A stretch of DNA of 27,985 bases from a virus. Taxonomy: Duplodnaviria; Heunggongvirae; Uroviricota; Caudoviricetes. Positions 698-19,367 of this stretch are shown in pieces. Made by a program: the position numbers and the translations under genes. The stretch's first letter is position 1. Every line of letters starts with the position of its first letter. Below the pieces are notes generated by a model. That model had not been told where the DNA came from. It ran no database searches and saw nothing but the letters and a program-made list of their open reading frames with translations. Location of the stretch: IMG/VR virus record IMGVR_UViG_2609459774_000007, positions 1 to 27,985 of that record; one strand, given 5' to 3'.

Positions 698-1060
698 GGG
701 GCTGATTCTGGATTCGACGGGATTTGCGAAACCCAAGGTGCATGCCGAGGGGCGGTTGGCCTCGTAAAAAGCCGCAAAAAATAGTCGCAAACGACGAAAA
801 CTACGCTTTAGCAGCTTAATAACCTGCTTAGAGCCCTCTCTCCCTAGCCTCCGCTCTTAGGACGGGGATCAAGAGAGGTCAAACCCAAAAGAGATCGCGT
901 GGAAGCCCTGCCTGGGGTTGAAGCGTTAAAACTTAATCAGGCTAGTTTGTTAGTGGCGTGTCCGTCCGCAGCTGGCAAGCGAATGTAAAGACTGACTAAG
1001 CATGTAGTACCGAGGATGTAGGAATTTCGGACGCGGGTTCAACTCCCGCCAGCTCCACCA
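698..1060 (+). ncRNA. ssrA: tmRNA (transfer-messenger RNA, SsrA)
   Basis: 363-nt sequence starting GGGGCUGAUUCUGGAUUCGACGGG and ending ...GGUUCAACUCCCGCCAGCUCCACCA; the tRNA-like acceptor/T-arm 3' end and overall length match E. coli tmRNA; directly downstream of smpB. Confidence 0.95.
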
Positions 1061-1064
1061 AATA
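1016..1064. repeat. attachment-site direct repeat, copy 1 (3' end of ssrA; attL of the P2-like element)
   Basis: 49 bp (ATGTAGGAATTTCGGACGCGGGTTCAACTCCCGCCAGCTCCACCAAATA) repeated exactly at 12713-12761; this copy is part of the intact tmRNA gene. Confidence 0.85.
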
Positions 1065-3080: not shown

Positions 3081-3418
3081 GACATCAGCCCTCCCACCGT
3101 TTTACTGATATCGCTTAAGGCAGATGTTGCCGTTTCCTGCAGATTATTCAGTTGCGCACTGAGATCACCGAACATATCGGACAGGGATTCATCCACCCGT
3201 TTGAGCGACAGGGTGAACTCAATCCGGCGCGGCATACCGTCGCGGAAAAACTCCGTTTTAGTCTGATTCAGTCCCTCAATCACATACATGCCGTAAATCG
3301 TGCCGCTGCCTTCAATCAGAGGCCATGCTTTCCCCTGTTCTGCCATCTGCTCCAGTGCCAGCAACGACAGCCTGCCGCCTGTTATCTCCGGCATAAGAAC
3401 ACCGGAAAGCGTCAGCAT
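3077..3418 (-). pseudogene. U: P2 gpU-like tail protein, N-terminally truncated fragment
   Basis: 113-aa ORF (TLSGVLMPEITGGRLSLLALEQMAEQGKAW...) matches the C-terminal two-thirds of gpU as I recall it; overlaps the D start by 4 nt as in intact tail operons; the N-terminal part is missing. Confidence 0.65.
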
Positions 3419-3459
3419 GTCGTTTTCCGGTCCCAGAAACTGCGTGGACGGACGTCGGT

Positions 3460-4185
3460 TTACCCGACTGTTTGCCGCATGTCGCCAGCTGCGTTGATAC
3501 TGCAGTTGTCTTCCTGCCAGTAGATGGACAGGTTATCCAGACGGGTGATCAGCAGCGCATTCGGCGGGAAGAACGGCGCACGCACGGCCTGCAGGCCACC
3601 CATGCGTTTCTGGCTGATGATCATATCGGCAGCCAGTTTTTCACTGTTTTCCTGCTCTTTGTTGACCAGCGGGAAATACTTGTCAGACAACAGTTCACGA
3701 CCGCAAATCACCACCAGACCGTCATCGTCCTGGTAAACCACGTCGATAAGCTCATTGACGGCATCCATCACCACAGCGTCCAGGTTGGCATATTCGCCAC
3801 CTTTCCCGACTTTCACCGCACCCGGAGTGGTTTCACCGCCCGTGGTGGTGCTGCCCATGACGTGATCCGGTGCATCCTCACGGATTTTCTGCAGCCAGCC
3901 TTTGTTCACATCCTGCAGCAGCGGGTTTTCGCTACGGTTGGAGGTTTTCGCACGCTTCACGCCGTTAAAGCCGATCATGATGCGGTCCAGTGCCTGACGT
4001 TTCACGATGGCGTCACGGATGCGCACCTGGAAATCCTGAAACTTCGCCCACAGATCCAGCTTCGCGTAGGTCAGCACCGTGTCAAAGTTGGTCTGCTCGC
4101 ATTTATATTCCACATCGACCATCAGGGTCGGATCGGTGAAGTGATCGCCCTTGAGCCTGCGCTGGCAAAATACACCCGACGCGGA
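3460..4185 (-). pseudogene. N: P2 gpN-like major capsid protein, internal fragment (both ends missing)
   Basis: The 220-aa ORF (3460-4122) aligns with the middle of P2 gpN (YKCEQTNFD...LDLWAKFQDFQVRIRDAIVKRQ...GFNGVKRAKTS...VISQKRMGGL...LSIYW). The frame extends upstream to a stop at 4186-4188 without N-terminal homology, and the C-terminus diverges after SIYW. Confidence 0.75.
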
Positions 4186-4540
4186 TTAGACCTGGATACC
4201 TACTGGTTTGTGCAATACGGTATGACAACCCAGCCGTATCAGTTCACGAAAGGCAGCATTTTTCATCTGATGGAACCCACTGTAGAGCCAGCCCCTTCTC
4301 TTCATCACTACACTCACTAGCCGCTACAAGCTTAAGAAAAAAATCAATGCGCTGGAGCTTCAAAGACTCCAAAAAATAGTCCTGCATCTTTCCTCCTATA
4401 ACACCACACGCAATACTGTATGTATAACCACTGTTTATATTTACAGTATATAATAATCTTACTGATGTAAAACGTTTTTTTACATTCATCAGCCTGATAT
4501 GCCTGGTATTATTAAGAGCACGAATTGTTAACCCGCGTAA

Positions 4541-6955
4541 TTAATACAGGTTCCGCCACTGATCATCTTCCTGCAAACGCTGGTTCCGATAGAAGATACG
4601 CAGGCCTGCTCCTGACGGAATACTGCCTCCGCGAAGGAGTAAATCGATCTCTTTCTCGCTGCCATCAAATCCTCTGGACTTCAGCTCATACACGAGCTGC
4701 AGTCGCTGATGGTCTGTAATTCGCTGTTTGTAGTCTTTACGCCGTTTCGGTTTCACCAGGCGTAACCTTGCTGCCAGTTCCCGGCGCTCTTTTTTGCTCA
4801 TACTGTGCAGGTAATCGTGCAACTCCTTGTCATCCATGCTGGTAATGTCCGTTCTGGGGTCCCCATCAGCTGATTTATCTTTCTCCTGTTGGTTCAAATT
4901 TTCAGCAAGGGGACAGTTATTGCCACGAGTCCAAGGGGCGCAAGCGCCCTGGTCGGCTGCCGCCTCCTGAACGTCAACGGCCTTACGAACCATTTTCCAC
5001 TTCACTGCATGAGTGCAGATCTTGCCCTCTGCAATGGGTGACCAGATGCCATAAATACGAATGCCGTGATCGCCATAGGCGGTCGGCTCTTCGTTGATTT
5101 CATAAGCGGTTCTGATCAGGTGATATTTGCGGGGAACCAGTACGCCGCCCTGCTTCATGATGTAGGTGGCAAAACAACCAGCATCAGCAGCAGCCAGGAT
5201 TGCATCAAGGCGCGGGTTATCCAGTACCGGCGCACCTGCTTTTTTGTCCCCCTGTTGCCTTGCCGCCTGACCAGCCAGCAATCGCAGTTCACGGTAAGCC
5301 TGACGCCCCGGAATGCCAAAGAAGCGGAATTGCTGAACACGATGCAGAGACGCCCAGGCATTAACGTATTCAGCATTATCACGCAGGGATTTCCCCGTTT
5401 CCTTGCTGATCTCGCCAGCCAGACCACGCCCGTCAATGTTCTTACTGATGTATTTCGCGATGTAGCTTGTTGGCGTACCTTTGCGCGGGTTAATCAACTC
5501 AGACTTAAAGCGCGGCCCAGTGTTATTGCCCAGCTCCTCGCGGTCTTCACGGATGGCAAACTTACGCAGTAATACAGTGATGGCGCGGCGGTCTTTTTTG
5601 CGCATAAAACACAACAGGTGCCAGTGAACTGTACCGTCATGATGCGGCTCAGCCACCCGCACGCCATACCAGCGCAATCCGGCTTTGTGCATCGCCTTAC
5701 GAAATGCAGCAAACATGCCGACCAGGTAATCACTACTTTGTCTTACCGTCGCATTTGTCCAGGTTGGGTTGGGCCTGCCGTTATTTAGCGTGGAATGGAA
5801 ACGTGACGGACAGGTGATGGTGTAGAAAACGGCACAGTCACTGCGCATTTCAGCGATAAGCTCCAGACCTTTAACACAGGCCATCATCTCATTGCGGCGA
5901 TGCGCCGGGTTGCTGCTGCTGGCGTTTACCACATCTTCCATATCCAGCGTGTCACCGTCTTCGTTCACCAGTTCATGAGAACGGAAAAACTCCAGCGACT
6001 TACGGCGCTGCTCACGTTTATGCATCACGGCTTCATAGCTGACATAGGGAGATGCTTTTTTGCTGACCAGACAGACAGCACGCAACTGCTCTTCCCGCCA
6101 TTCGCAACGCATCTTCCATAATTTCCTATACCACCAGTCGGCGCACAGCATACGCGCCAGCGAACCCGGAATGAGTTCATAGGGCACGGGTTTACGGCGG
6201 TTTCTTTTCCGACGGAGTTGCTCAAACGCAGGCGGGATGACATCCAGTCGCAGGGTTTCTGCTGCCACCTTTTCCCATGTCTTGCGGATTTCTTCTGGCT
6301 TAACATCATCGGTGGCGTACAAATCACCACAAGCGGCATCAAGACACATGCTCATATGCGCAGCGACAAGAGTAGACAGGCGTTTCACCTGATCCTGACT
6401 CATTTCAGGCAGGATCAGCAGGCCGTCCAGCCCTTCATGGCTTGCCATAAAGCGAAAAGAAGTGGATAGCTGACTCTCGCGTACATGCTCCAGTCGTTCC
6501 AGACATGGCTTAATCGTCTCACGCAAATAGCGGGAATAAGCCTTTGGCCTGCCCAGGCTGCTGAAGTATTCGATACGTTGCATCAGCGGCTTGCTGATGT
6601 GGGTGGGCTGGGCGCTGACATCTGCCAGAATGACCATGTCTGGGTTAAAACGCTGCTGCTCATGCGCCAGCTTTGCCCGACTAATGAGCTTATCCTGCTC
6701 CATTTCGCGCTGGACAGGATCACGGGATTCATTAAAGAAATAACGCTCCCAGACCTGATCACTCAGTGCCTCACGGCGCAGCAGTTCCTGCTCGTTATCG
6801 GCAGCGTACAGAGTGATCAGGTTTGAAAGCGCAGAAACCGGCGCAACTTCCGCCGGGTCCAGATAAGGGTTAATGGCCTTTTTCGGGCTGTTCCATGAGA
6901 ACGATGCGGAAGCCTCGTTAAAGCCGCAGCAGTTGTTCATATCGGCATGGTTCAT
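4541..6955 (-). CDS. A: P2/186 gpA-like rolling-circle replication initiation endonuclease
   Basis: 804-aa ORF with the HxH metal-binding motif (VHWHLL) and the paired-tyrosine motif YIAKYISK typical of phage gpA initiators; located between the early regulatory genes and the structural gene remnants. Confidence 0.85.
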
Positions 6956-7917
6956 GCACGTACTCCGTACACGGCAGAACTATCCACGCCACGCGAATAA
7001 TCAAATCCCACCCAGCAGCGCGGCCCGGAAACAGCGATGATTTCTGTTGCAGATTTACTCTCACCAGCTGCTACGCCGATGCTGCGTTTTGCCTTGATGT
7101 AGTGGTGAGTAAAATTGCGATACAGCGAACGGATCAGGGATGTGTCACTGTTAGAAATAATGACCGGATGTCCTTCTGATGACCGATGTTCAAGAACGGA
7201 TGCCAGGTGATACTGGTCATCTTCAGTGAAGCCGTCAGTGTGATAACCGGAAAACGTGCCGTCATACGGCGGATCGCAATACACCACATCCCCCGCCTTC
7301 AACATCGCCAGCGTTTCATCAAAGCTGGCGCAGATAAACGTTGCCCGCTGGGCTTTTTCTGCAAATGCGCGAATTTCTTTTTCAGGAAAATACGGATTTT
7401 TATAATTACCGTAGGGAATGTTGAAATGCCCGCTCTTGTTATAGCGACATAAACCACGGTAACCGTGACGATTGAGATACAGGAAATATACCGCTTTCAT
7501 GAAATCAGTAATTTCAGTTGAGTAATTAAACTCCTGCCTTATGTTGTAATAAGCCACCTCCCTGTTTGCTTCCTCAAATAAAGCTCTGGCGCGAGATATA
7601 AACGATTCACAATCAGCAGCAACCTTTTTATAGAGGTTGATTAAATCAGGATTAATATCCGCAACAAGATAGCTGGGGTAGTGGATCTCCTGCGCTTCGT
7701 TCTGGATTGCTTCAGCGGTCACACGCAGCAGTTCTGCCGCTTCGACGTGGTTTAGCTGGCGGGATGTGATATGACACGCAAGACTATCAAGGCGGGCAGC
7801 CATTGCTTCAGCCCTTGCCCGGCGTTCTTCCAGACGAGCCTCTGTCAGTAAAATATTAAGCCCTGCGTCATCCGGTCCGATTTTAGTCGTGAGGGTTTCA
7901 ATATTACGCATAATCAA
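6952..7917 (-). CDS. Dam-like N6-adenine DNA methyltransferase (D12 class) with a non-canonical N-terminus
   Basis: Residues ~85-300 align with E. coli Dam from the ADIN(S/P)DLI(S/N)LY segment through FLYLNR.GY.GLCRYN, PYFPE and the catalytic DPPY motif (VVYCDPPY). The first ~85 aa are unrelated and the KWAGGK/FxGxG region is not seen. Confidence 0.8.
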
Positions 7918-7978
7918 TTCTCCTGAATTTAGATAAAGGGATGCCCGGCGGGTTTACGCCATTAATTTCATTAGCTGG

Positions 7979-8320
7979 TTAATTCGGCATGGTTAGCCGT
8001 CTGGGAAATAAGCTCACCACTGCACGAAAATGATTCATTGCTTTAATCAACTCCCGCTTTTCGTCAGTGGTCAGCTCATTAATGCTGATGCTATGACGTT
8101 CAGCTGGAATTTTTGCCATAAAGAATATGGCAGCCAGTGCCCGTTTATTTTGTTCGCTATTAATATCCCGTGGATCACGCATATCTTTAATAAACTGCTC
8201 AAGCTCTGACTCAATATTAAGACCAAAAACTTTCGCTCTTAATTCCGCAATGTGATTAAGTCCATTCAGGCGTTCACCGGGGCTTAATGGAACAGTCGCC
8301 GCAGCGCCTTCAATAGCCAT
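7979..8320 (-). CDS. hypothetical prophage early protein (position equivalent to 186 dhr)
   Basis: 113-aa ORF on the early-operon strand between the cII/fil region and dam; no recognisable motifs. Confidence 0.45.
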   Translation of the reverse strand: MAIEGAAATVPLSPGERLNGLNHIAELRAKVFGLNIESELEQFIKDMRDPRDINSEQNKRALAAIFFMAKIPAERHSISINELTTDEKRELIKAMNHFRAVVSLFPRRLTMPN

Positions 8321-8514
8321 TTGTTCCCCCGTTTTTTCGTTGATAGTTCTGCCAACAATTCATCTTGCGAACGGCACGGATGCCAGCGTTTACCATCCTC
8401 ACCCATGATCCAGCCGTGACCGTAGTGCATTGCCGGACTTTGTTTTACCAGCAGCGATGCAAATGATGGTTCTTTCGTCAGCATAAGCACCTCACAGCAA
8501 ACCGAATGAAGCAC
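8284..8514 (-). CDS. hypothetical small early protein, possibly Fil-like
   Basis: 76-aa ORF directly downstream of cII in the position occupied by fil in phage 186; overlaps both neighbours, as is common in compact phage operons. Assignment is by position only. Confidence 0.4.
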   Translation of the reverse strand: MLHSVCCEVLMLTKEPSFASLLVKQSPAMHYGHGWIMGEDGKRWHPCRSQDELLAELSTKKRGNKWLLKALRRLFH

Positions 8515-9001
8515 CGAGGCCAGTCACGGTATCAACTGCACTCGCCATCGCAGGATTAGCCTGTAAACGGGCCTGCAATGAAACAGCCGCCAGCGCCATC
8601 AGTCGTGTAACAGAGTTAATGCTGCTGATCGCATCACGACGGCCTGCACTGGTTTTTACATCGCCAGAAACCGCCCCTGCCGCAACACGCCCGATCTCTG
8701 CGGTTGCACTCATGACGTAATGTGGCAGTTTCTCTTTTGCTACCTCATTAATCGGTACACATGGCAGGCAGTGAATCTGTGCCAGAAAACCATCTATCAG
8801 CGTTGAGTCTTCTGTCAGATCGGTAAGCAGCCAGATTTCTGGCGCATTGAGCTGATGCGGTTGATCTGGGTTGAGTTTGTTTCGCAGTGTCTGAACATTC
8901 ATTCCTGCACGTTCTGCCAGCTTCGCCATATTGTGATGTAGTGCAAAAGCTCTACAGGCTTCATCAAAATGCGGGTGTTTGGAAATCTTATAATCAAACA
9001 T
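8492..9001 (-). CDS. cII: 186-type CII-like transcriptional activator
   Basis: 169-aa ORF, the length of phage 186 CII, with an N-terminal HTH-like segment; sits in the apl-cII-fil order downstream of the divergent cI/apl switch. Confidence 0.7.
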   Translation of the reverse strand: MFDYKISKHPHFDEACRAFALHHNMAKLAERAGMNVQTLRNKLNPDQPHQLNAPEIWLLTDLTEDSTLIDGFLAQIHCLPCVPINEVAKEKLPHYVMSATAEIGRVAAGAVSGDVKTSAGRRDAISSINSVTRLMALAAVSLQARLQANPAMASAVDTVTGLGASFGLL

Positions 9002-9033
9002 GCTACCCCCTTAGAAAGTTCTCATAATTGAAC

Positions 9034-9276
9034 TTACTTACCAACAATGACGCGGAAGTTGGAATGACCGAGGGATTCACGGACCTGATCGGTTTTGTAC
9101 ATTAAATAACGCAGGCTTACGCGGCCTTTGTTTTTTTCTTTCTTGACCATGTATTTAGCAAGCTGACCATGGTGAATTTTTTGATACACGGAGCCGCGGG
9201 AGATACCTTCCCATTCCGCGAACTCAGCAGGCGTTGCCATCTCTTTTGGTACACGAATTGAAATATCAGTACTCAT
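9034..9276 (-). CDS. Apl/Cox-family small HTH protein (putative excisionase / lytic-promoter regulator)
   Basis: 80-aa ORF transcribed divergently from the repressor gene, first gene of the early lytic operon; HTH-like segment ATPAEFAEWEGISRGSVYQKIHHGQL. Confidence 0.55.
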   Translation of the reverse strand: MSTDISIRVPKEMATPAEFAEWEGISRGSVYQKIHHGQLAKYMVKKEKNKGRVSLRYLMYKTDQVRESLGHSNFRVIVGK

Positions 9277-9392
9277 AGTGCAGTATCTCTTAGTTTGGTT
9301 TCGTTTTATCTTGTTTTATGTGGTTTGGTTTTGCTTTTCAAACCATAAATGGATATTAGGATCACTTTTTATATACGTCAAGAGGTTTGATT
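9277..9392. promoter_or_regulatory. divergent lysis-lysogeny switch region (apl/cI intergenic; candidate operators and promoters)
   Basis: 116-bp AT-rich intergenic region between divergent apl and cI, with repeated GTTTGGTTT / TGGTTTGGTTTTG motifs and an inverted AAACCA copy. Confidence 0.5.
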
Positions 9393-10025
9393 ATGAGTTT
9401 AATAAAGGCGGGAAATGATAGTGGTGGGCGCGATGCAATTAACAGGCTTATTAAGGCTTACAACTTCAGCTCACGACAGCAGCTCTGCGAACATCTGGAA
9501 GTATCAAAAAGCACTATGGCTAACAGATACTTAAGGGATAGCTTTCCTGCCGAATGGGTAATTCAATGTGCCCTTGAAACAGGAGCTTCCCTTCTATGGC
9601 TGGCTACTGGTCAAGGAGATATGTATGCGTGTGAGAACGAAGAAACAAATCTCAAAAATGAACCTCCTGTCACTGTAAGACCACTTTCTAAGATCGTTGC
9701 TCCTAGCATCAAACGTGTTGAACTGAAGAACGGCGAACTGCAGCCAAGTGATGAAATTCTTCTTGATAGCAGCCTGCTCGATGGTGACTCATCCAACGCT
9801 TTATTTGTTAAAACAGCTAATAATAGCTTTGTAGTGGATACGTCCGTTAAACAAGTCAGTAATGGCTTCTGGTTAGTCGATATGGACGGAGTTAAAAGCA
9901 TCGTTAAAATTGCGCGCATACCCGGAAACAAAATAGTAGTTAACCAAGATGACACTTCATTTGAATGTTCTGTAGATGATGTGGAAGTCGTAGGACGTGC
10001 AGTCAAAGTAATCAAGAACCTCTAA
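9393..10025 (+). CDS. cI: 186-type CI-like immunity repressor
   Basis: About 210 aa with an N-terminal HTH (VSKSTMANRYLRD...) and a C-terminal oligomerisation-like region; immediately upstream of int as in 186-type prophages. The track ORF starts at a TTG (9387); ATG at 9393 has AGAGG 7 nt upstream. Confidence 0.75.
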   Translation: MSLIKAGNDSGGRDAINRLIKAYNFSSRQQLCEHLEVSKSTMANRYLRDSFPAEWVIQCALETGASLLWLATGQGDMYACENEETNLKNEPPVTVRPLSKIVAPSIKRVELKNGELQPSDEILLDSSLLDGDSSNALFVKTANNSFVVDTSVKQVSNGFWLVDMDGVKSIVKIARIPGNKIVVNQDDTSFECSVDDVEVVGRAVKVIKNL

Positions 10026-10028
10026 CTT

Positions 10029-11048
10029 ATGACCATCAGAAAACAGCCGAACGGAAAATGGTTGTGTGAGTGCTATCCCAATGGACGCAATGGTAAGCGC
10101 GTGCGTAAGCAATTTGCTACCAAAGGCGAAGCCATTGCGTTTGAAAGCTTCACAATGGAAGAAGTGAACAAAAAACCGTGGTTAGGAGAAAAGGATGATC
10201 GGCGACACCTATCAGAATTAATTGAGCTTTGGTATTCCCTGTATGGTCAGACACTCGCAGACCCCAAGCGCCTCATGGCGAAACTTAGAATTATCTGTAA
10301 TGGTCTAGGCGACCCCATCGCCTCAGAACTGACAGCCGGTGACTTTACGAAATACCGCGAAGCACGGTTAAAAGGTGAAGTACGAAATGAAGATGGGACG
10401 CTTATGTCGCCCGTTAAGCCCCGCACGGTAAACCTCGAACAGCGCAATCTATCATCGGTGTTCGGTACATTAAAAAAACTAGGACACTGGTCAGCACCAA
10501 ACCCGCTGGCAGGACTTCCAACCTTCAAAATTGCCGAAGGTGAGCTGGCTTTTCTTTCCATGGACGAAATCAAGCGCCTGTTGGCTGCATGTGCTGAATC
10601 TCAAAGCCCCAGCTTATTAATGATTGCCAAAATATGTTTGGCTACCGGCGCACGTTGGAGCGAAGCCGAAAACCTGCATGGCCACCAAATATCGAAATAC
10701 CGAATTACTTATATAAAGACAAAAGGTAAGAAAAACAGAACAGTACCGATATCACAGGAACTATATGACGAACTCCCCAAGCACAGAGGGAAGTTATTCA
10801 CGCCATGCAGAAAAGCCTTTGAGCGTGCAGTAAAGCGGGCCGGTATTGAACTTCCGGAGGGGCAATGCACCCATGTATTACGTCATACATTCGCCAGCCA
10901 TTTTATGATGAACGGCGGAAACATACTGGTACTACGCGATATTCTGGGCCATGTGGATATAAAAATGACGATGATTTATGCCCACTTTTCCCCTGACCAC
11001 CTAGAAGATGCGGTAACAAAAAACCCACTGTTTAATTTAAAATGGTAA
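10029..11048 (+). CDS. int: P2-type tyrosine integrase
   Basis: 339-aa ORF with clear similarity to P2 Int (PxGRNGKRxRxxF...; catalytic-region HxLRHTFASHFMMNGG...MxYAHF); transcribed toward the attR repeat. Confidence 0.9.
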   Translation: MTIRKQPNGKWLCECYPNGRNGKRVRKQFATKGEAIAFESFTMEEVNKKPWLGEKDDRRHLSELIELWYSLYGQTLADPKRLMAKLRIICNGLGDPIASELTAGDFTKYREARLKGEVRNEDGTLMSPVKPRTVNLEQRNLSSVFGTLKKLGHWSAPNPLAGLPTFKIAEGELAFLSMDEIKRLLAACAESQSPSLLMIAKICLATGARWSEAENLHGHQISKYRITYIKTKGKKNRTVPISQELYDELPKHRGKLFTPCRKAFERAVKRAGIELPEGQCTHVLRHTFASHFMMNGGNILVLRDILGHVDIKMTMIYAHFSPDHLEDAVTKNPLFNLKW

Positions 11049-12583
11049 ATTTAACGATGAAAAGATTGAAATCAGTTTCCGATGCAGTTATCCAACTCAG
11101 ATTAAATGCGGTAAAAGCAAGTATTCAAAGCGTCAATCCAAACGAGTTTATAACACATTGCCTTGATTATAACCTCCAGAAATTTAACAATCAGCTTGAA
11201 ATGTTACAACACCTACCATGGGTTGTGAATTTATGCATTAAATGGTCCGCCAGTGCGCTGGGTAAAAAACGGAAATTTAAACATATTGACAGACCTGGTG
11301 CTGTCAGGTTGCTACAACGAGCATATGAGGAACTAAGTATAATTCCAACTGGTCTGGAAAATATAGACAAAGGGATTAACTTTTTCCTTAGAAATACGTT
11401 ATATCAACAAGGTATTTATCAAAGATTAGATGCTTTAAATACAATTAGCAGACAAGTTTTCTTGTTTTCTTCCTTAGATGACAACAATAGAATCAAGCGT
11501 AGATTCAAAGAACTTACTGATGTTGATATAAACGATTTTCTAAAACTATCATTTGTGTTAGTATCACTCGTTACCTTACAAGCACCAGTAAAGAAAATAA
11601 CAATAGATTCTTTCGCAGCTCTTTACTCCGTAATACCTAAAGATACAATCGAGAAATTTCTGAATACTATATCTATCCCTTACGAAGAACTAGCTCGGTT
11701 TTGCTGTACAAAAGATAATGAGACACCTTTAGTAGAATATTATGCTCCATCGCCTTTCTTAGAAAAACCTTTCATCAAATTCGAAGGAAATTATCACCAA
11801 ATACATACGCAGCTAACTTCGACCAGTATACAAACCTTTATATATGATTTGCTTCGCAGAGATGATGCAGAATCGTTCATGGACAAATTTGGGCGAGTTT
11901 TCGAAAATGCAGTCAACCAGCTATTAGATGAAAGTGGAATTGCTTATATTGCTGAAGGAAATTTAAAAGAATATCTACCTCAAGAGAATAAAGTTGTAGA
12001 TTTTCTACTACCTCATGATGAAGCTAACATTTTCATCGATGCTAAAGGTGTTGAGATAAACCAAAAGGGAATGGTTACACTACGACCAGGGGATATTTCT
12101 GCCAATATAAAAAGCTCCGTATTAAAAACTATAGAACAAGCACACTCAGTAAATAGAGAGCTAATTAAAAAAGGTAACCAAAATTTTTCTTTTAAAAAAG
12201 AGTCCTACATTTTATGTCTTACTTATAAAAATTTATTCCTTGGAAATGGTACATTTCTAAATAAATCCTATGCTAACATCGAAATGAAAAAAATCCGAGA
12301 TAGGCATTCAGAAGAATATCAAATACCTGATGAGAACATTTTCTGCATATCATTTGAGGAATTCGAGTATCTGCTATCTTCTTGCAAGGAATACTCAAAA
12401 CCTGTACATGAGGTACTGCGAGAAGCTGTAGTTAGAAACCAAACACCATCAAGTGCAGTTTTCCTTTTTGCACATCATATCCGTGACTCATTCCCCAAAA
12501 TACGTTCATCTGAGATCGTCAGGCTCGCAGGCTTGAGCGAGATCAACCATATCGTTGAACGATTAGAGCAAGCTGGCTCTTGA
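11042..12583 (+). CDS. uncharacterised 513-aa cargo protein with a putative C-terminal PD-(D/E)xK nuclease core
   Basis: Long AT-rich ORF between int and attR, overlapping the int stop (alternative start ATG 11057). The C-terminal half has E...VVDFLLP...IFIDAKG, fitting the E/D/(D/E)xK arrangement of PD-(D/E)xK nucleases; the N-terminal ~270 aa have no recognised motifs. Confidence 0.6.
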   Translation: MVNLTMKRLKSVSDAVIQLRLNAVKASIQSVNPNEFITHCLDYNLQKFNNQLEMLQHLPWVVNLCIKWSASALGKKRKFKHIDRPGAVRLLQRAYEELSIIPTGLENIDKGINFFLRNTLYQQGIYQRLDALNTISRQVFLFSSLDDNNRIKRRFKELTDVDINDFLKLSFVLVSLVTLQAPVKKITIDSFAALYSVIPKDTIEKFLNTISIPYEELARFCCTKDNETPLVEYYAPSPFLEKPFIKFEGNYHQIHTQLTSTSIQTFIYDLLRRDDAESFMDKFGRVFENAVNQLLDESGIAYIAEGNLKEYLPQENKVVDFLLPHDEANIFIDAKGVEINQKGMVTLRPGDISANIKSSVLKTIEQAHSVNRELIKKGNQNFSFKKESYILCLTYKNLFLGNGTFLNKSYANIEMKKIRDRHSEEYQIPDENIFCISFEEFEYLLSSCKEYSKPVHEVLREAVVRNQTPSSAVFLFAHHIRDSFPKIRSSEIVRLAGLSEINHIVERLEQAGS

Positions 12584-12712
12584 TTGCACAATTGCAAATT
12601 GGCGACAAATTGGCGGCAGAGCATTAAAAATGCGTAAAATAAACAAACACCAAATAATACTAATATGCTGTTTTAAAACATAAATATATGTTTTTATCAT
12701 AATAATAATGGT

Positions 12713-12761
12713 ATGTAGGAATTTCGGACGCGGGTTCAACTCCCGCCAGCTCCACCAAATA
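12713..12761. repeat. attachment-site direct repeat, copy 2 (partial ssrA 3' end; attR of the P2-like element and attL-type junction of the P4-like island)
   Basis: Exact 49-bp repeat of 1016-1064; the sequence upstream of it is unrelated to ssrA, so this is only a partial ssrA copy. Confidence 0.85.
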
Positions 12762-12791
12762 TTGATGTACTGAAGTTCAGTAAAGTCTACT

Positions 12792-12826
12792 AAGCCCGCA
12801 CAGCACAAGCTCTGCGGGCTTTTTTA
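12792..12826 (+). terminator. Rho-independent terminator downstream of the second att copy
   Basis: GC-rich stem GCCCGCA/TGCGGGC with a ~12-nt loop, followed by TTTTTT. Confidence 0.55.
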
Positions 12827-12923
12827 CGTCTATTGTAGTCTAGTGAGAATTGCTGAGAACTACGAGTTATGGCACCCTGAATGGGACCCACGAAGATGGG
12901 TCCTAAAATCGAGGGTCCCAAAC

Positions 12924-14153
12924 ATGGCCAAAATCGCTAAGAAGCTCACTGACACTGAAATCAAAAGCACCAAACCTGCCGAAAAAGAGGTTAACCTTTT
13001 TGACGGCGATGGTTTGCTGTTGCGAATCGCTCCCCTGGCGAAGGGAGGGAAGAAAAATTGGTATTTCAGATATGCAGTGCCTGTGACCAAAAAGCGAACT
13101 AAGGTGAGCTTAGGAACCTATCCTCACCTTACACTTGCGAAGGCACGAGCTTTACGTGATGAATACTTGTCGTTGCTTACAAATGGTATAGACCCCCAAG
13201 TTCATAACAACCAAAAAGCCAATGCACTGAAAGATGCCACGGAACATACATTTCAAGCAGTAGCCAAGAAGTGGCTTGATGAGAAAGTCAAAACGTCAGG
13301 CATCTCCCAAGATCATGCTAACGACATCTGGCGAAGCCTAGAGAGAAATATCTTTTCCACATTGGGTGATACCCCAATTAAGGAGATTCGCCCTAAAATG
13401 CTTAAACAGCATTTAGAACCCATAGAAAAACGAGGTGTCCTTGAAACACTTCGCCGCATCATATCCCGCCTGAATGAAATTTTCCGCTATGCAGCAACAG
13501 AAGAACTCATAGAATTCAACCCGGCAGACAACCTGGGGCAACGGTTCAGCAAGCCAAAAAAACAGAATATGCCAGCATTACCCCCTTCCGAACTCCCTCG
13601 CTTCTTGGTTGCTCTAAACAATGCTTCTATCCGTTTGGAAACAAGGCTACTGATTGAGTGGCAACTTCTCACATGGGTTCGCCCAGGTGAAGCTGTTCGC
13701 ACAAGATGGTCAGATATTGATATTGAAACTGGCATGTGGAACATCCCGGCGGAGTTTATGAAAATGAAGAAGCCTCACAAAGTTCCACTGAGCAAAGAAG
13801 CTTTGCGAGTTTTGGATTTAATGAAAGTCATCAGCGGGCATAGAGAGTGGGTGTTCCCCAGTATCAAAGCTCCACTCAATCACATGCATGAACAAACAGC
13901 TAATGCGGCCATAATCCGTATGGGTTTCGGAGGTGAGCTTGTAGCTCACGGTATGCGATCCATTGCTAGAACGGCTGCTGAGGAGTCTGGCAAGTTTAGG
14001 ACTGATGTCTTAGAAGCCGCCCTTGCCCACTCGAAGAAAGATGAAATAATTGCAGCCTACAATCGTGCAGAGTATCTCACTGAACGGGTGGTTCTCATGC
14101 AATGGTGGAGTGACTATGTTTCGTCTCAAAAATGCAAAGTTATTGCCGCATAA
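12924..14153 (+). CDS. P4/IntA-family tyrosine integrase
   Basis: Strong similarity to E. coli CP4-57 IntA as I recall it (LTDTEIK..KP, DIWRSLER, LETLRR, PLS.EAL.(V/I)L, HG.RSIA.TA, LAH, AYNR.(E/D)YL..R...MQWW.D). The track ORF starts at 12843; the homology-supported start is ATG 12924 (MAKIAKKLTDTEIK). Confidence 0.9.
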   Translation: MAKIAKKLTDTEIKSTKPAEKEVNLFDGDGLLLRIAPLAKGGKKNWYFRYAVPVTKKRTKVSLGTYPHLTLAKARALRDEYLSLLTNGIDPQVHNNQKANALKDATEHTFQAVAKKWLDEKVKTSGISQDHANDIWRSLERNIFSTLGDTPIKEIRPKMLKQHLEPIEKRGVLETLRRIISRLNEIFRYAATEELIEFNPADNLGQRFSKPKKQNMPALPPSELPRFLVALNNASIRLETRLLIEWQLLTWVRPGEAVRTRWSDIDIETGMWNIPAEFMKMKKPHKVPLSKEALRVLDLMKVISGHREWVFPSIKAPLNHMHEQTANAAIIRMGFGGELVAHGMRSIARTAAEESGKFRTDVLEAALAHSKKDEIIAAYNRAEYLTERVVLMQWWSDYVSSQKCKVIAA

Positions 14154-14215
14154 CTCTCCCATGATGGATTAACTATCTTGATTTAGTTAAAGAATTAATA
14201 ATCACACCATTAACC

Positions 14216-14265
14216 TATGTGGACTAAGCATAGCCATTTACAAATGGGGACATTGAGTCCACATA
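14216..14265. repeat. 50-bp nested inverted repeat (candidate recombinase or ParB binding/crossover site)
   Basis: Outer 10-bp arms TATGTGGACT / AGTCCACATA flank a 30-bp spacer that itself contains CCATTT-AC-AAATGG (6-bp arms around a non-palindromic AC centre); between intA and the serine recombinase gene. Confidence 0.5.
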
Positions 14266-14435
14266 ACGAAAGCTGTCGGTCATATCAGCTAAATAATTCA
14301 CATCTCTTCTCGATTATCATACACCTCGAAGATCTACCAAATTCGCTCTAATCAATGATAAAACAGTTGAATTCGGTTGAAATTTGATCAATTTTATCCA
14401 CTACATTGTATTGAATCATCCATGAGGTTTCGTGC

Positions 14436-15992
14436 ATGGCTAGCGAAAATGACAAAAATCATAGAGTTAGGGTCGCGCAGTACTTGAGGATGTCTACCGA
14501 CCATCAGCAATATTCTTTACATAATCAGTCCGAATATATCAAAGATTATGCTGAAAAGAACAATATGGAAATCGCTTATACCTACGATGATGCAGGTAAG
14601 AGCGGAGTCAGTATCGTAGGCAGGCATTCTTTGCAGCAGTTACTTAGCGATGTAGAACAAAAGAAAATAGATATACAGGCTGTATTATTTTATGATGTGA
14701 GCCGTTTTGGTCGTTTTCAAAATAGTGATGAAGCGGCATATTATTCCTTTCTATTTGAGAGAAATGGTGTAGATCTTATATATTGTTCCGAACCTATACC
14801 CACTAAAGATTTCCCTTTAGAGTCCTCTGTTATACTGAATATAAAAAGATCTAGTGCTGCATATCACAGCAGGAATCTATCTGAAAAGGTATTTATAGGG
14901 CAAGTAAATTTAATAAAGCTTGGTTATCATCAAGGCGGTATGGCTGGTTATGGGCTGAGACGTCTTTTAGTAGACGAAAATGGCATAGCTAAAGAAATAT
15001 TGAGTTTCCGCAAAAGAAAGAGTATTCAAACAGATAGGGTAATATTAATTCCGGGACCAAAAAATGAAATAAAAATTGTAAATAGAATATATGATCTCTT
15101 TATAGATAATAACGTCCCAGAATTCATTATTGCTGAGAGATTAAATGAACAGAACATACCTGCAGAAAATGGAACATTATGGACTCGTGCAAAAATACAT
15201 CAAATTTTGACAAATGAAAAATATATTGGAAACAACATATATAACAAAACCTCATCTAAATTAAAAAGTAGGCTTGTAAAAAACCCCAAACATGAATGGG
15301 TTAGATGTGACAAGGCATATAAACCTATTATTTCAAAGAAAAAATACAATAAAGCTCAAGAAATAATTCAGCTCCGATCCATTCATTTGACTAATGAAGA
15401 TCTATTAGAAAAACTAAAACAAAAATTAGAATCTAATGGAAAACTATCAGGCTTTATCATTGATGAAGATGATACAGGCCCTTCATCTTCTGTTTATAGA
15501 ACCCGATTTGGTGGTCTTTTAAGAGCATATACTTTGATTGGTTATAAGCCAGAACATGATTACAGCTATCTCAAAATAAATGAAGCACTAAGATCATTTT
15601 ACTCAGAGATAATTGAGGATTTTAAGGGTGAAATTTTAAAAAGTAACTGTCATATAGACGAGTATAAATATGCCCCAATGCTTTACATCAATGATGAGTT
15701 TTTAATTTCCGTCCTTGTTACTAAATGCATACATATGAAATCAGGTAAACTTAGATGGAAAGTCCGGTTTGATAACTCACAGAAAGCAGACATAACAATT
15801 GTTATACGAATGAATTCACAAAATATTTCACCTCTTGATTTTTATATCATACCAAAGATTGAAAACGAATATAATAAAATGTGCATGACGGAAACAAACA
15901 ACATTCGATTAGATCTCTATAGATTTGATAATCTTGATAAACTTCTACAAATTATTACTCGCATGAAAGTGAGGGAACTATATGCTGCCTGA
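14436..15992 (+). CDS. large serine recombinase (resolvase/invertase catalytic domain plus recombinase domain)
   Basis: 518-aa AT-rich ORF; the N-terminus has the serine-recombinase catalytic pattern (YLRMSTDHQQYSLHNQ ... YDDAGKSG ... DVSRFGR); RBS GAGG upstream. Confidence 0.85.
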   Translation: MASENDKNHRVRVAQYLRMSTDHQQYSLHNQSEYIKDYAEKNNMEIAYTYDDAGKSGVSIVGRHSLQQLLSDVEQKKIDIQAVLFYDVSRFGRFQNSDEAAYYSFLFERNGVDLIYCSEPIPTKDFPLESSVILNIKRSSAAYHSRNLSEKVFIGQVNLIKLGYHQGGMAGYGLRRLLVDENGIAKEILSFRKRKSIQTDRVILIPGPKNEIKIVNRIYDLFIDNNVPEFIIAERLNEQNIPAENGTLWTRAKIHQILTNEKYIGNNIYNKTSSKLKSRLVKNPKHEWVRCDKAYKPIISKKKYNKAQEIIQLRSIHLTNEDLLEKLKQKLESNGKLSGFIIDEDDTGPSSSVYRTRFGGLLRAYTLIGYKPEHDYSYLKINEALRSFYSEIIEDFKGEILKSNCHIDEYKYAPMLYINDEFLISVLVTKCIHMKSGKLRWKVRFDNSQKADITIVIRMNSQNISPLDFYIIPKIENEYNKMCMTETNNIRLDLYRFDNLDKLLQIITRMKVRELYAA

Positions 15993-16878
15993 AAAAAATG
16001 AATTCCCAATAATTCAAATTGAGATTGCAAAAATAAAATTTCTTAACCCACGAACAAGAAATAAGGTAGTGCATGAAGAAATAAAGGAAAGCATAAAAAA
16101 AAGAGGATTAAGCAAGCCAATAAGCGTAAGAGCTATTGATGAAGGCGATTTCAAATATGCTTTAATTTGTGGTCAAGGGAGAATAGAGGCTCTCGTTGCA
16201 TTAGGTGAAACTATTATTCCAGCAATTATAAGAGATGTATCAGAAGAAGATGCTTACGTTATGAGTTTAGTTGAAAACATTGCAAGGAGAAGGCCACGTT
16301 CTAATGAGTTATTACAGGTGATTAAAGACATGAAAATCAGAGGACTTTCAGACTCCGAAATAAGTGAGATTACTGGATATTCATCGAACTGGGTGAGCAG
16401 TATTAATATGCTACTTGATAAGGGAGAGCATAAACTTCTCTCAGCAGTCGAACGGGGTAATTTGCCTCTGTATCTCGCAGTGCAATTTGCAAGATGTGAA
16501 ACTGAGGAAGCACAAGATATTCTTACCGAAGCATATGATAAAAAATTAATAAAAAGTCGGGACATTATAAAGATAAAACACATTCTAAATCAAAGAACAG
16601 TTGGGAATAAAGGTGCAAAAGCAGCCGGATTTTATTATCACAAACCATCAAAAAGGATGACTGCAGAGGAGTTGATTGAGCTTTATGAAAATAGTATCGC
16701 TGAACATAAATCTGTTTATAACAACTCAAAATTCATAAAAACCAACCTACTAATAGTAAATGAGATTTTTAACATCATAATGATGAATAAAAGCTTTCAA
16801 CATATACTTGAACAAGAGAATCTTTCAGAACTACCATCTCAGATATTAACCCCAGTAAACAAAGAGGTATTAAAATGA
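15982..16878 (+). CDS. ParB/Srx-fold protein with HTH (ParB-like, paralogue 1)
   Basis: 298 aa; N-terminal ParB-like region (IQIEIAKIKFLNPR ... ISVRAIDEGDFKYALICGQGRIEAL ... IPAIIRDVSEEDAYVMSLVENIARR) followed by an HTH-like segment; start overlaps the recombinase stop. Confidence 0.7.
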   Translation: MLPEKNEFPIIQIEIAKIKFLNPRTRNKVVHEEIKESIKKRGLSKPISVRAIDEGDFKYALICGQGRIEALVALGETIIPAIIRDVSEEDAYVMSLVENIARRRPRSNELLQVIKDMKIRGLSDSEISEITGYSSNWVSSINMLLDKGEHKLLSAVERGNLPLYLAVQFARCETEEAQDILTEAYDKKLIKSRDIIKIKHILNQRTVGNKGAKAAGFYYHKPSKRMTAEELIELYENSIAEHKSVYNNSKFIKTNLLIVNEIFNIIMMNKSFQHILEQENLSELPSQILTPVNKEVLK

Positions 16879-17771
16879 TTCAGATACGTTTTGGCGATAA
16901 TTTTATTTACCTGGAAACTAATAAGTTAATTCCATCTAAGGAATTATTAGAAAACGTAAAGCGAAGCCATAAATATCATCAAATAGTTACCTCTATCGAA
17001 AGCTTAGGTATTATTGAACCAATAATAGTATTCTATGACAAAGATAAAGATGTCACTAAGATACTTGATGGCCATTTAAGGGTTGAGGCTTTAAAAGACT
17101 TAGGTATAGAAAAAGCTCCATGTATACTTTCGAGCATAGATGATGCTTTCACTCCTAACAAACAAGTGAATCATATAAATGTAGTTGAAGAACATAGAAT
17201 GATAATTAAGTCTCTGGCAAAAGTATCAATTGAAAAACTTAGTGCTGCTTTGGGCATATCTGTTGATGCCATAAAAGATAAAGCGAATGTGATGAACGGC
17301 ATAGATCCAAGTGTAATTGCGAAACTTTCTGATAAACCTATACCTAAGGCTACATTTGACGTTTTGAGGAAAATGAAGCCAATTCGCCAAATTGAAGCAG
17401 TCGGTACAATGATTAATTTTGATAATTATAGTAAAAAATTTGCAATGAGCATCTTGGATGCAACACCGGCATCGATGATAGTAAATAAAGGGAAAAACAC
17501 TCCCTATAAAAAGGACATAAAAAAAACCATACTTCGTCTGGAACAAGAAATGGCAACAACTTCGGAAGAAACGAAAAAGCTTCAAACCGAGTATGGTTCA
17601 GATATGTTGAAATTCGTTATAATCCAGTCATATATTAATAAATTACTTGGCAATTCTAAAGTTCTTCATTGGTTCTTAGAAAACGAGGTTGATTATCTTA
17701 ATGAGTTAAAAAGAATTTCTAGAATAAATTCTTTGGATGATAAGACTCTTACTGAAAACAGCAAGTCATAG
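16875..17771 (+). CDS. ParB/Srx-fold protein with HTH (ParB-like, paralogue 2)
   Basis: 298 aa; ParB-like N-terminal region with a DGHxR-type motif (ILDGHLRVEAL) and an HTH-like segment (LSAALGISVDAIKD); start overlaps the stop of the preceding ParB-like gene by 4 nt. Confidence 0.65.
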   Translation: MIQIRFGDNFIYLETNKLIPSKELLENVKRSHKYHQIVTSIESLGIIEPIIVFYDKDKDVTKILDGHLRVEALKDLGIEKAPCILSSIDDAFTPNKQVNHINVVEEHRMIIKSLAKVSIEKLSAALGISVDAIKDKANVMNGIDPSVIAKLSDKPIPKATFDVLRKMKPIRQIEAVGTMINFDNYSKKFAMSILDATPASMIVNKGKNTPYKKDIKKTILRLEQEMATTSEETKKLQTEYGSDMLKFVIIQSYINKLLGNSKVLHWFLENEVDYLNELKRISRINSLDDKTLTENSKS

Positions 17772-18879
17772 TCATGGTTTTATATAGCCTAAATAAACCA
17801 AGAAGTATACTTACACAACGACCTTCACGCCGAAGAAGCTGTCAGATACGCCAGCAACCAAAGCATTACGTTTAAGTGTCAGTCATTGATACGAAGGGAT
17901 AACTGCGTATCAGCAGCCGGACATTGAGTCGAATAAAGGCTGGTAGAGAGGGACAGTTCTGTGTCATCGGGAGATTCGTCAGAAACATCAGCGGCAGAAC
18001 AGATGAACCAGCAATTGGTAGTGCACAGAAAACTCTCCAGTATTTAATTATTCAACTTAACACTAAAAAAAATCACATAGTTAATATCATAATTTTTCTT
18101 TGGTCTACGTATGCGAGAGATATTGTGGCTTTAACCGGGTATTAGGAGTCGTTTCAGATAAAAGATGTTCTTCGATTCGACTGGACTTGGTAATAGCAAT
18201 AAGTAATCGTTAATATTGAAGGACGAAAGGCTACTTCAAAACAAAGTAACCTTTCCAATATTCCCATCTATGGGACAAGTGGTACATTAACTGCACATAG
18301 TGCAGGATACATATGACATAAAACTTTTTATTTATGGCATACATTATAAATAACTTGTATTTTATGAATGTCAATAGGTTCTTGTTTAATACTTTTAAAA
18401 TTATTAATTGATTGTTTTTATTATAGCTTCGCTTGTACAAGCGAAGATCCTATTGTTCTTGAATGAATAATGCCAATTATAAGAGAAGCAAGGGCTAACT
18501 CTGCGAAGCCGCTGCGCTTGCTTCTTCGAGTTCCCCTTGCTTTTCTGCCCTTCGGTTATAAAAGAAGCCAAACTGCTACCAACCTTGAATCTCTATATTT
18601 TTGAATAGACAAACATTACCCGCTCCCTTAATCACCACTATCAAAAATAAAAAATCATCTTACAAATAACCCCATACACATCATTTTAGATTGCGACCTT
18701 ATTAAATTAAAAATTCAACCTTAGATGGAATTTAATGTACAAGGAATGTCCTACTGTAACGGAGAATTTTAAACATTAAAAATTACAACTATGGTTTGTC
18801 ATAGCCTGTACATCTATTCACCTCATGCATATGCACTAAGAAAGCTTTTTTGAATACTGGAGTTGTCCCTGCTAAAACG

Positions 18880-19210
18880 GACACGGCTAATTAACTGCTA
18901 ATATGGCATCACGATATTCGCGTGGCGATTTCATGTTCAACCCCTTGTGTGGATGCAGATTATTATAATCCTCTATCTATTCTGCCATTGTTTCCATCAT
19001 TTAGACTGCATCCAGCAGATCATCTACGTACACATAATCCCGCTTGAACGTCTTTACAAACGATTCTGCCATGCCGTTACTTCCCGGACTGCGTACTGGT
19101 GTAGTACACACGATGAACCACAGTGAACTAGCGAATGTGCGCGTGGCATCGGCTGTGCAGCAATTATGCCAATGACACTGGCTCCATTGACGGCAATGAC
19201 CTGACATCTA
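18880..19210 (-). pseudogene. IS3-family (IS2-like) transposase 3' fragment, frameshifted remnant
   Basis: Two frames on the minus strand give ...RSPGSNGMAESFVKTFKRDY... and ...HPHKGLNMKSPREYRDA..., matching the C-terminal region of IS2 InsD-type transposases ([20 protein letters not shown] ... [14 protein letters not shown]); no intact ORF. Confidence 0.6.
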
Positions 19211-19367
19211 CAATCCCGCTACAAAGCATTTACTCCATGAGTCATTGCACTTGCTGAGCTACACGAACACACTAAAACCAGATAATAATTAATCGCTGTA
19301 TAAGCTCGTAACAAGCGGAACTTTAAGGCAAAATAGGGCCATCTTCCCCCTTCATAAGGTTACGCTA

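What the first reader, a model, noticed from the sequence alone, without database searches (positions are those of the whole stretch)
11042..12583. AT-rich 513-aa cargo gene between int and attR with a PD-(D/E)xK-like nuclease core: candidate single-gene defence or abortive-infection factor
Intact P2/186-type genomes have int next to the attachment site; here a 1.5-kb gene of strongly deviating composition (visibly AT-rich against ~50% GC phage genes) is wedged between int and attR, overlapping the int stop. Its C-terminal half carries an ordered acidic / D / D-x-K arrangement (FENAV ... VVDFLLPHDEANIFIDAKG) consistent with a PD-(D/E)xK nuclease, and the large N-terminal region is unrecognisable. 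That architecture (variable N-terminal domain plus C-terminal nuclease) recurs in single-protein anti-phage systems, and prophage ends are known sites for defence cargo. I could not match it to a specific named system from sequence alone.
Basis: partly seen in the sequence, partly recalled or inferred. Interest (0 to 1): 0.75.

Follow-up and report, generated by a model that had tools for sequence, protein, structure and literature searches.

The report
Known GapS1 anti-phage gene in prophage remnant

Summary
The ORF, its low GC content, its position between int and attR, and its acidic/D/D-x-K motif are all real. The gene is not an unknown. It passes NCBI's curated GapS1 model (401.6 bits, cut-off 320), and RefSeq annotates the identical gene as gapS1 in two E. 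coli genomes. Read from Met-6 (window 11057), the protein is 507/508 identical to EJP5250929.1, one of three E. coli GAPS1 homologues that Mahata et al. cloned and showed to protect against coliphages.

[quoted passage not shown] The substrate is unknown.

The host element is an 11.7-kb remnant in ssrA, not an intact prophage. The likely start is 11057, so the overlap with int is doubtful. The int–att slot is a variable cargo site, already reported as a minor P2 defence hotspot. Three unannotated alternative occupants of that slot are the only fresh lead.

Verdict: already known, low interest.

The parts
11057..12583 (+). gapS1 coding sequence (508 aa; the longest ORF starts 15 nt earlier, at 11042)
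   Evidence: ORF. NCBIfam NF047931 antiphage_GapS1 at 401.6 bits, cut-off 320. RefSeq gapS1 annotation with this start. 507/508 identical to the tested EJP5250929.1. The cloned construct starts at the same ATG.
11042..11056 (+). Possible 5-codon N-terminal extension (MVNLT) that would overlap the int stop; probably not translated
   Evidence: Absent from homologues. pLDDT is below 50 for residues 1-9. Not used by PGAP or in the functional clone.
11069..11770 (+). N-terminal all-helical region (about residues 10-243 of the 513-aa numbering), the presumed sensor part
   Evidence: Helices 14-234 in the AF2 model. No Pfam or PDB match. Conserved family positions R117, Q122, Q123, Q127, R137 and P243. 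The sensor role is inferred from the paper's discussion.
11867..12352 (+). PD-(D/E)xK nuclease core (residues ~276-437). E288 = nt 11903-11905, D320 = 11999-12001, D333 = 12038-12040, K335 = 12044-12046
10029..11048 (+). Tyrosine integrase of the 186/P2-like element, immediately upstream on the same strand
   Evidence: Pfam Int_N + Phage_integrase. Annotated site-specific integrase.
9387..10025 (+). CI repressor gene, first gene of the CI-int-gapS1 same-strand block
   Evidence: Pfam Phage_CI_repr + Phage_CI_C. The same CI-int-cargo order occurs in all relatives.
1016..1064 (+). attL core: the 3' end of ssrA (tmRNA 698-1060)
   Evidence: 49-nt perfect direct repeat. tmRNA found by ARAGORN and Rfam.
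12713..12761 (+). attR core: duplicated ssrA 3' end, 130 nt after the gapS1 stop
   Evidence: The same core lies roughly 90-130 nt after the cargo stop (or after the int stop where the slot is empty) in related loci.
12792..12826 (+). Strong intrinsic terminator, the first one on the + strand after int and gapS1
   Evidence: Terminator scan. Hairpin of -20.5 kcal/mol, z -5.1, followed by a U-run.

Best explanation
[quoted passage not shown] GAPS1 is a self-contained ~500-aa defence protein with a helical N-terminal region and a C-terminal PD-(D/E)xK phosphodiesterase domain.

It is carried as AT-rich accessory cargo in the slot between int and attR of a 186/P2-like prophage, now an 11.7-kb remnant, integrated in ssrA.

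The most likely mechanism comes from work on the Vibrio prototype. The protein stays idle until a phage structural protein appears during infection (the major capsid protein, for T7). The nuclease domain then becomes active and arrests cell growth (dormancy), so the phage cannot complete its cycle. Here the catalytic residues are E288, D320, D333 and K335.

The gene sits 8 nt after int on the same strand, with no terminator before attR. It is therefore probably co-transcribed with cI-int from the lysogenic promoter and expressed in the lysogen.

Shown here: family membership, near-identity to a validated allele, the fold, conservation of the catalytic residues, and the location.

Taken from the paper: anti-phage activity of the 507/508-identical allele; loss of defence with D313A or K328A in the prototype; the capsid trigger and dormancy in the prototype.

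Inferred: that this allele uses a capsid-type trigger, that the N-terminal region is the sensor, and co-transcription with cI-int. The nucleic-acid substrate is unknown.
For: NCBIfam NF047931 scores 401.6 bits against a cut-off of 320, covering residues 24-479 over the full 455-position model.

The identical gene is annotated gapS1 in E. coli AZ147 and BEN5202.

The 90% cluster contains EJP5250929.1. The pairwise comparison gives 507/508 identities, with E157 here and K there. The cloned DNA of that homologue starts with the same bases as window 11057 onward.

The paper reports that three E. coli homologues, including EJP5250929.1, protect against diverse coliphages. D313A and K328A abolish defence. 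T7 Gp10 escape mutations I217T and V247A defeat it. Co-expression with Gp10 gives dormancy.

D320 and K335 are invariant in 132/132 members, and position 333 is D in 98 and E in 34. The D-to-K spacing of 15 residues equals that of D313/K328.

The family has 1401 clusters at 50% identity with E<=1e-3. Almost all are ~500 aa and match full-length.

There is no + strand terminator between int and 12792.
Against: No experiment was done on this exact allele or in this strain.

The trigger and the dormancy phenotype were established for the Vibrio prototype, which shares 24-29% identity with the E. coli homologues, and for E. coli ZH142-A (growth arrest at high MOI). They were not established for EJP5250929.1 itself.

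I could not retrieve the prototype sequence. The mapping of D320 to D313 and K335 to K328 therefore rests on invariance and spacing.

No convincing promoter or Shine-Dalgarno sequence was identified directly upstream.

The host prophage is decaying, so expression from the lysogenic operon is assumed rather than shown.
Confidence: 0.93

Rival explanations
1. The family is the same, but the mode of action differs. The nuclease acts like a restriction enzyme, cutting invading phage DNA directly and sparing the cell, rather than acting on host targets to impose dormancy.
For: The best structural matches are the cleavage domains of Type IIS enzymes and nickases (N.BspD6I, R.BspD6I small subunit, FokI) and of HindIII. 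The authors state that the target is unknown and that GAPS1 may also eliminate the phage and allow recovery (discussion).
Against: In the prototype, co-expression of GAPS1 with the T7 capsid protein alone, without phage DNA, stops growth. E. coli ZH142-A arrests at MOI 5. Both point to a host-directed or indiscriminate activity.
Confidence: 0.15
2. The gene is a silent relic. It is intact by chance but no longer expressed or useful, and sits in a prophage remnant that is being eroded.
For: The element has lost nearly all morphogenesis genes and keeps only fragments of gpU and the capsid gene. No clear dedicated promoter or ribosome-binding site was found.
Against: A 1.5-kb ORF at 35% GC remains open. 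The sequence is 100% or 99.9% identical at the DNA level in two other genomes, one of which carries a prophage that retains its capsid, terminase and portal genes. It differs by one residue from an allele with demonstrated activity. CI and int upstream are intact.
Confidence: 0.05
3. It is a phage housekeeping nuclease needed for the 186-like phage's own cycle, for example recombination, excision or DNA processing, and not a defence gene.
For: It lies in an operon-like arrangement with int. PHROGs groups it with phage proteins of unknown function (phrog_14259).
Against: Related integrases (80-92% identity) were found in 223 complete E. coli genomes, but only 2 carry this gapS1 allele. Among the six other genomes inspected, five hold an unrelated gene in the slot and one holds none. 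A core function would not be optional. The family also occurs outside phages, in GMT islands and across many bacterial orders.
Confidence: 0.02

Closest known systems
E. coli GAPS1 homologue EJP5250929.1 (Mahata et al., bioRxiv 10.1101/2023.03.28.534373)
   Same: 507 of 508 residues are identical, and the start codon and length are the same. That protein, cloned in pBAD33.1, protected E. coli against diverse coliphages.
   Different: There is one substitution (E157 here, K there, in the 513-aa numbering), located in the N-terminal region. The genomic context of EJP5250929.1 was not examined here. This copy sits in a prophage remnant.
GAPS1 prototype WP_005477165.1 of Vibrio parahaemolyticus VPaI-6 (GMT island)
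   Same: A single ~500-aa protein with a C-terminal PD-(D/E)xK domain. It has a conserved D and K 15 residues apart (D313/K328 there, D320/K335 here). It belongs to the same curated NCBIfam family.
   Different: The paper reports only about 24-29% identity between the prototype and the E. coli homologues. The prototype is carried on a Gamma-Mobile-Trio island, not on a prophage. Its trigger (T7 Gp10) was determined for the prototype only.
Klebsiella Peduoviridae prophage GapS1 alleles (ST437-OXA245phi4.1 gp49; Kp4845-2)
   Same: The same CI-int-gapS1-att arrangement, the same ssrA att core in ST437-OXA245phi4.1 (not found in the Kp4845-2 record), and AT-rich cargo of 31-34% GC.
   Different: Only 52-58% protein identity. 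They are annotated only as hypothetical proteins in the phage records.
Accessory defence loci of P2-like phages (old/tin and Z/fun hotspots, and the minor int-att hotspot)
   Same: An AT-rich, swappable cargo gene at a fixed position in a P2-like prophage. The int-att position is listed as holding 3% of P2 defence systems. Variable occupancy was confirmed here.
   Different: It is not at the two classical hotspots described by Rousset et al. 2022 (PMC9122126). The main text of the 2026 survey does not name GAPS1.
FokI / N.BspD6I-type Type IIS cleavage domains and other defence PD-(D/E)xK effectors (Shedu SduA, Can2, Avs3 nuclease)
   Same: The same catalytic fold and motif.
   Different: Sequence identity is 9-14%. 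There is no recognisable DNA-recognition, CARF or STAND domain. The N-terminal region has no solved analogue.

Membership tests
GapS1 / GAPS1 anti-phage family | Scores above the curated cut-off of NCBIfam NF047931 (antiphage_GapS1) over the full model | tested here: met
   401.6 bits against 320, E 4.5e-120, residues 24-479 on model positions 1-455 of 455.
GapS1 / GAPS1 anti-phage family | Single self-contained protein of ~500 aa with a C-terminal PD-(D/E)xK domain | tested here: met
GapS1 / GAPS1 anti-phage family | Conserved active-site Asp and Lys (D313 and K328 of the prototype), needed for defence | tested here: met
   D320 and K335 are present and invariant in 132/132 members, with the same 15-residue spacing. 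Residue-by-residue alignment to the prototype was not possible because its sequence was not retrieved. The need for these residues in defence comes from the paper.
GapS1 / GAPS1 anti-phage family | Protects bacteria against phage infection | not testable with these tools
   Published for EJP5250929.1, which is 507/508 identical. Not tested for this exact allele.
GapS1 / GAPS1 anti-phage family | [quoted passage not shown] | not testable with these tools
   Shown for the Vibrio prototype with T7 Gp10. Growth arrest at high MOI was shown for E. coli ZH142-A.
PD-(D/E)xK phosphodiesterase superfamily | Alpha-beta-beta-beta-alpha-beta core, with an acidic residue at the start of the second strand and (D/E)xK in the third | tested here: met
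P2-like prophage int-att accessory (defence) hotspot | Lies between the integrase gene and the att site of a P2-like element | tested here: met
   int at 10029-11048, gapS1 at 11057-12583, attR core at 12713-12761. The element carries gpD, gpU, P2 capsid, gpA, CII and CI.
P2-like prophage int-att accessory (defence) hotspot | Variable gene content at the same position among related elements | tested here: met
   Relatives with 80-92% identical int carry a 352-aa, 401-aa or 222-aa unrelated gene, or nothing. All cargo is 30-35% GC.

The most novel reading that the evidence does not exclude
The gene itself is known. The slot it occupies may be under-exploited. In ssrA-targeting 186-like prophages of E. 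coli, the position right after int acts as a one-gene swap cassette. It is probably driven by the lysogenic cI-int transcript.

Besides gapS1, it holds at least three AT-rich genes: 352 aa (WP_059320302), 401 aa (WP_001429732, in strain LF82) and 222 aa (WP_001083625). None of them has a Pfam, NCBIfam or PADLOC match.

The most novel reading not excluded is that these are new single-gene anti-phage systems, and that gapS1 is kept by selection (domesticated) while the rest of the prophage decays.
Probability: 0.3. Interest if true: 0.45.

Novelty: already known. Interest (0 to 1): 0.12.

Why it matters
For this window the result mainly serves as an annotation: the "unknown nuclease" is a validated defence gene.

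Three modest points follow:
- A defence gene persists intact while its prophage has been whittled down to 11.7 kb. This is consistent with host-level selection for the cargo.
- GapS1 alleles differing by up to about 50% all sit in the same CI-int-gapS1-attR(ssrA) arrangement in E. coli and Klebsiella Peduoviridae. This gives a defined natural expression context for a system so far studied mostly from plasmids.
- The neighbouring alleles of the slot supply three unannotated candidates that could be tested cheaply for anti-phage activity.

Tried and rejected
Pfam gave only sub-threshold noise (TPD, PilX, PrgX).

PADLOC-DB v2.0.0 (2023) has no model for this family and returned nothing.

PHROGs gave a strong match, but only to an 'unknown function' family (phrog_14259).

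The PDB sequence search gave only chance matches (SdrE, PilX; E >= 0.07). No GapS1 structure is deposited.

Attempts to obtain the Vibrio prototype sequence for a residue-level mapping failed:
- The profile search in the word-indexed database returned only the same 30 proteins.
- Six family members with D313/K328 numbering were looked up, and none was the Vibrio protein.
- The paper's supplementary table holds synthesised genes for GAPS2-13 and the E. coli homologues, but not GAPS1.

I ran no further search on this, because membership was already settled.

The promoter scan gave no more promoter-like sites than shuffled sequence (13 against 9.6 +/- 3.0), and none convincingly upstream of gapS1.

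Rfam found nothing but tmRNA.

I considered and rejected two ideas. One was that the gene is a core phage function, rejected because the slot is variable and sometimes empty. The other was that the prophage is intact, rejected because the element is 11.7 kb and holds gene fragments.

Full report
**1. What is in the sequence**

The window holds an uninterrupted ORF at 11042..12583 on the + strand (513 aa). Its composition stands out. GC is 0.35 and GC3 is 0.28, against 0.46 for the integrase gene just upstream, 0.53 for the replication gene gpA, and 0.49 for the rest of the element.

A perfect 49-nt direct repeat of the 3' end of ssrA lies at 1016-1064 and at 12713-12761. No such match occurred in 100 shuffles. 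These repeats are the attL and attR cores of an element integrated into the tmRNA gene. The ORF is the last gene before attR and directly follows int (10029..11048).

**2. Two corrections to the observation**

First, the start codon. The longest ORF begins at ATG 11042 and would overlap the int stop by 7 nt. The evidence favours ATG 11057 (508 aa):
- RefSeq/PGAP uses it in both genomes that carry the identical gene.
- All homologues begin at the equivalent Met.
- Residues 1-9 of the long form are modelled with pLDDT below 50.
- The synthetic gene that was shown to be active begins 'atgAAAAGATTGAAATCAGTTTCC…', which is exactly window 11057 onward.

With this start there is an 8-nt gap after int. 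In two Klebsiella relatives the spacing is similarly tight: a 4-nt ATGA overlap in one, and 12 nt with a GGAG Shine-Dalgarno sequence in the other.

Second, the host element is not an intact P2/186 genome. It is only 11.7 kb long. It contains gpD, a C-terminal fragment of gpU, an internal fragment of the P2-type capsid gene, gpA, a DUF2732-dam fusion ORF, DUF5347, CII, an Apl-like gene, CI and int. It is a deletion remnant. The same CI-int-gapS1 module occurs in E. coli BEN5202, within a prophage that still has its capsid, scaffold, terminase, portal and head-completion genes.

**3. Identity of the gene**

Pfam and PADLOC-DB v2.0.0 return nothing useful. PHROGs places the protein in phrog_14259, 'unknown function'.

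NCBIfam gives a decisive hit. NF047931 'antiphage_GapS1 / GapS1 family protein' scores 401.6 bits against a curated cut-off of 320, and the alignment covers the whole 455-position model.

Megablast against 5,426 complete E. coli genomes finds the gene in two of them, at 100% and 99.9% identity, both annotated 'gapS1: GapS1 family protein'.

The family was defined by Mahata et al. (bioRxiv 10.1101/2023.03.28.534373). The paper reports the following:
- GAPS1 is a single protein from the Vibrio parahaemolyticus GMT island VPaI-6 with a C-terminal PD-(D/E)xK domain.
- D313A and K328A abolish defence against T7.
- T7 escape mutants map to the capsid protein Gp10.
- Co-expression with Gp10 causes dormancy.
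- Three E. coli homologues protect against diverse coliphages.
- Deleting the native homologue in E. coli ZH142-A sensitises it to phage BASEL21.

**4. Near-identity to a tested allele**

The 90%-identity cluster of the window protein contains EJP5250929.1, one of the three cloned and tested E. coli homologues. The direct comparison gives 507/508 identities without gaps. The only difference is E157 here and K there (513-aa numbering), in the N-terminal region. In practice, the window gene is an allele that has already been shown experimentally to be an anti-phage system.

**5. Independent check of the nuclease claim**

An AlphaFold2 model built on a 23-sequence alignment is confident (mean pLDDT 84.5, pTM 0.87). 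Residues 14-234 are all-helical.

The C-terminal half has the order helix 276-298 (E288), strand 321-324 (preceded by D320), strand 329-335 (D333-x-K335), helix 354-377, strand 388-394. This is the canonical PD-(D/E)xK core.

- then Shedu SduA, the Avs3 nuclease and NucC

Foldseek gives the same set with weak statistics. No GapS1 structure is deposited.

An exhaustive HMMER search finds 1,401 clusters at 50% identity with E<=1e-3 and 565 with E<=1e-30. Nearly all are ~500 aa and match end to end.

I aligned 132 members with a median 25% identity to the query. The results were:
- D320 is D in 132/132.
- K335 is K in 132/132.
- Position 333 is D in 98 and E in 34.
- E288 is E in 124.
- P243 and Q366 are invariant, and Q123 is Q in 131/132.

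The spacing between the invariant D and K (15 residues) equals that of D313/K328 in the prototype. I could not retrieve the prototype sequence, so this correspondence is inferred rather than aligned.

**6. Likely mechanism**

Taken from the paper: a phage structural protein made during infection activates the protein. The PD-(D/E)xK domain is required. The outcome is growth arrest that blocks phage production.

Inferred for this allele: the helical N-terminal ~240 residues are the sensor (the authors' suggestion), and the trigger is capsid-like.

Unknown: the nucleic-acid substrate, and whether cells recover.

The structural resemblance to FokI/BspD6I-type cleavage domains suggests regulation by oligomerisation, since those domains are active only when paired. 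This is speculation based on general knowledge of those enzymes.

On expression: the gene is on the same strand as CI and int. The terminator scan reports only one + strand site downstream of int, at 12807-12821. Folded over 12785-12835, it forms a strong hairpin at 12792-12826 (-20.5 kcal/mol, z -5.1) followed by a U-run, and it lies beyond attR. In phage 186 the cI-int operon is the lysogenic transcript (established knowledge). Co-transcription in the lysogen is therefore the simplest reading, but it is untested.

**7. The slot**

Integrases 80-92% identical to this one occur in 223 of 5,426 complete E. coli genomes, but only two carry this gapS1 allele.

Six sampled relatives have the same CI-int backbone, followed by different content:
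- a 352-aa gene (FG31-1, KE58)
- a 401-aa gene (LF82)
- a 222-aa gene (C21, STEC2018-553)
- nothing (TUM9754)

In every case the ssrA att core follows roughly 90-130 nt after the stop of the last gene. All cargo genes are 30-35% GC, against 45-49% for int.

Klebsiella Peduoviridae carry 52-58% identical gapS1 alleles in the same place.

The slot is thus a one-gene variable cassette. This kind of location is already on record. [quoted passage not shown] It is distinct from the two classical P2 hotspots of Rousset et al. 2022 (PMC9122126).

The three alternative occupants have no Pfam, NCBIfam or PADLOC match. They are the only new lead to come out of this work.

**8. Verdict**

The system is already named and curated, and an allele that differs by a single residue has been validated experimentally. 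The type of location is also documented.

Novelty: already known. Interest: low (0.12). The residual value lies in the natural expression context, the retention of the gene in a decayed prophage, and the uncharacterised sister cargo genes.

Noticed in passing
L005:5522-6580 (E. coli FG31-1; also KE58 in L009), L006:5527-6732 (LF82), L007:5528-6196 (C21; also STEC2018-553 in L008): Three unrelated AT-rich genes (30-35% GC) of 352, 401 and 222 aa occupy exactly the int-attR slot that gapS1 occupies here. All are annotated hypothetical, and none matches Pfam, NCBIfam or PADLOC. They are candidate uncharacterised defence cargo. TUM9754 (L010) has the slot empty.
   Followed up: partly
window 1065-12712: The 186/P2-like element is an 11.7-kb remnant. 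gpD is intact. It is followed by a gpU fragment (3077-3418, profile positions 45-120 only) and a capsid-gene fragment (3460-4122, profile positions 91-289 of 327), then gpA. All tail, baseplate, terminase and portal genes are missing. The regulatory/int/gapS1 end is intact.
   Followed up: partly
window 6952-7917 (-): A single 321-aa ORF combines a DUF2732 domain (residues 2-77) with the D12 adenine methyltransferase domain. In relatives, DUF2732, TraR/DksA and dam are three separate genes. This looks like an in-frame deletion fusion that removed the TraR-like gene.
   Followed up: no
window 12843-27985: A second island sits in tandem directly after attR. It carries a P4-type tyrosine integrase (12843-14153), a large serine recombinase (14436-15992), two ParB/RepB-like genes (15982-17771), a complete type I restriction-modification system (hsdM 19368-20915, hsdS 20912-22105, hsdR 22164-25403) and an ankyrin-repeat protein (26633-27502). 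Much of it is 29-37% GC. No third copy of the ssrA core lies in the window, so its far end is outside.
   Followed up: partly
window 1184-1666 (+): A 160-aa ORF lies between attL/ssrA and the ogr/gpD end of the element. It has no Pfam match and is annotated hypothetical (WP_021534458.1) in AZ147. It may be cargo at the other end of the prophage.
   Followed up: no
window 12792-12826 (+): A strong intrinsic terminator (-20.5 kcal/mol, z -5.1) lies 30 nt after the attR core. It is probably the terminator that served ssrA before the prophage inserted. It would now end any cI-int-gapS1 read-through transcript.
   Followed up: partly
L001 (E. coli AZ147) 15543-15875: In AZ147 the exact 35-nt att core was found only at ssrA itself and not downstream of gapS1. 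The element there is also shorter, with a truncated replication gene. The right junction may have been altered by a further deletion.
   Followed up: no
window 9353-9381 (-): A promoter-like site (TTGACG-17-TAATAT) lies in the CI/apl intergenic region and points toward apl-cII. It is positioned like the lytic promoter pR of the phage 186 switch.
   Followed up: no
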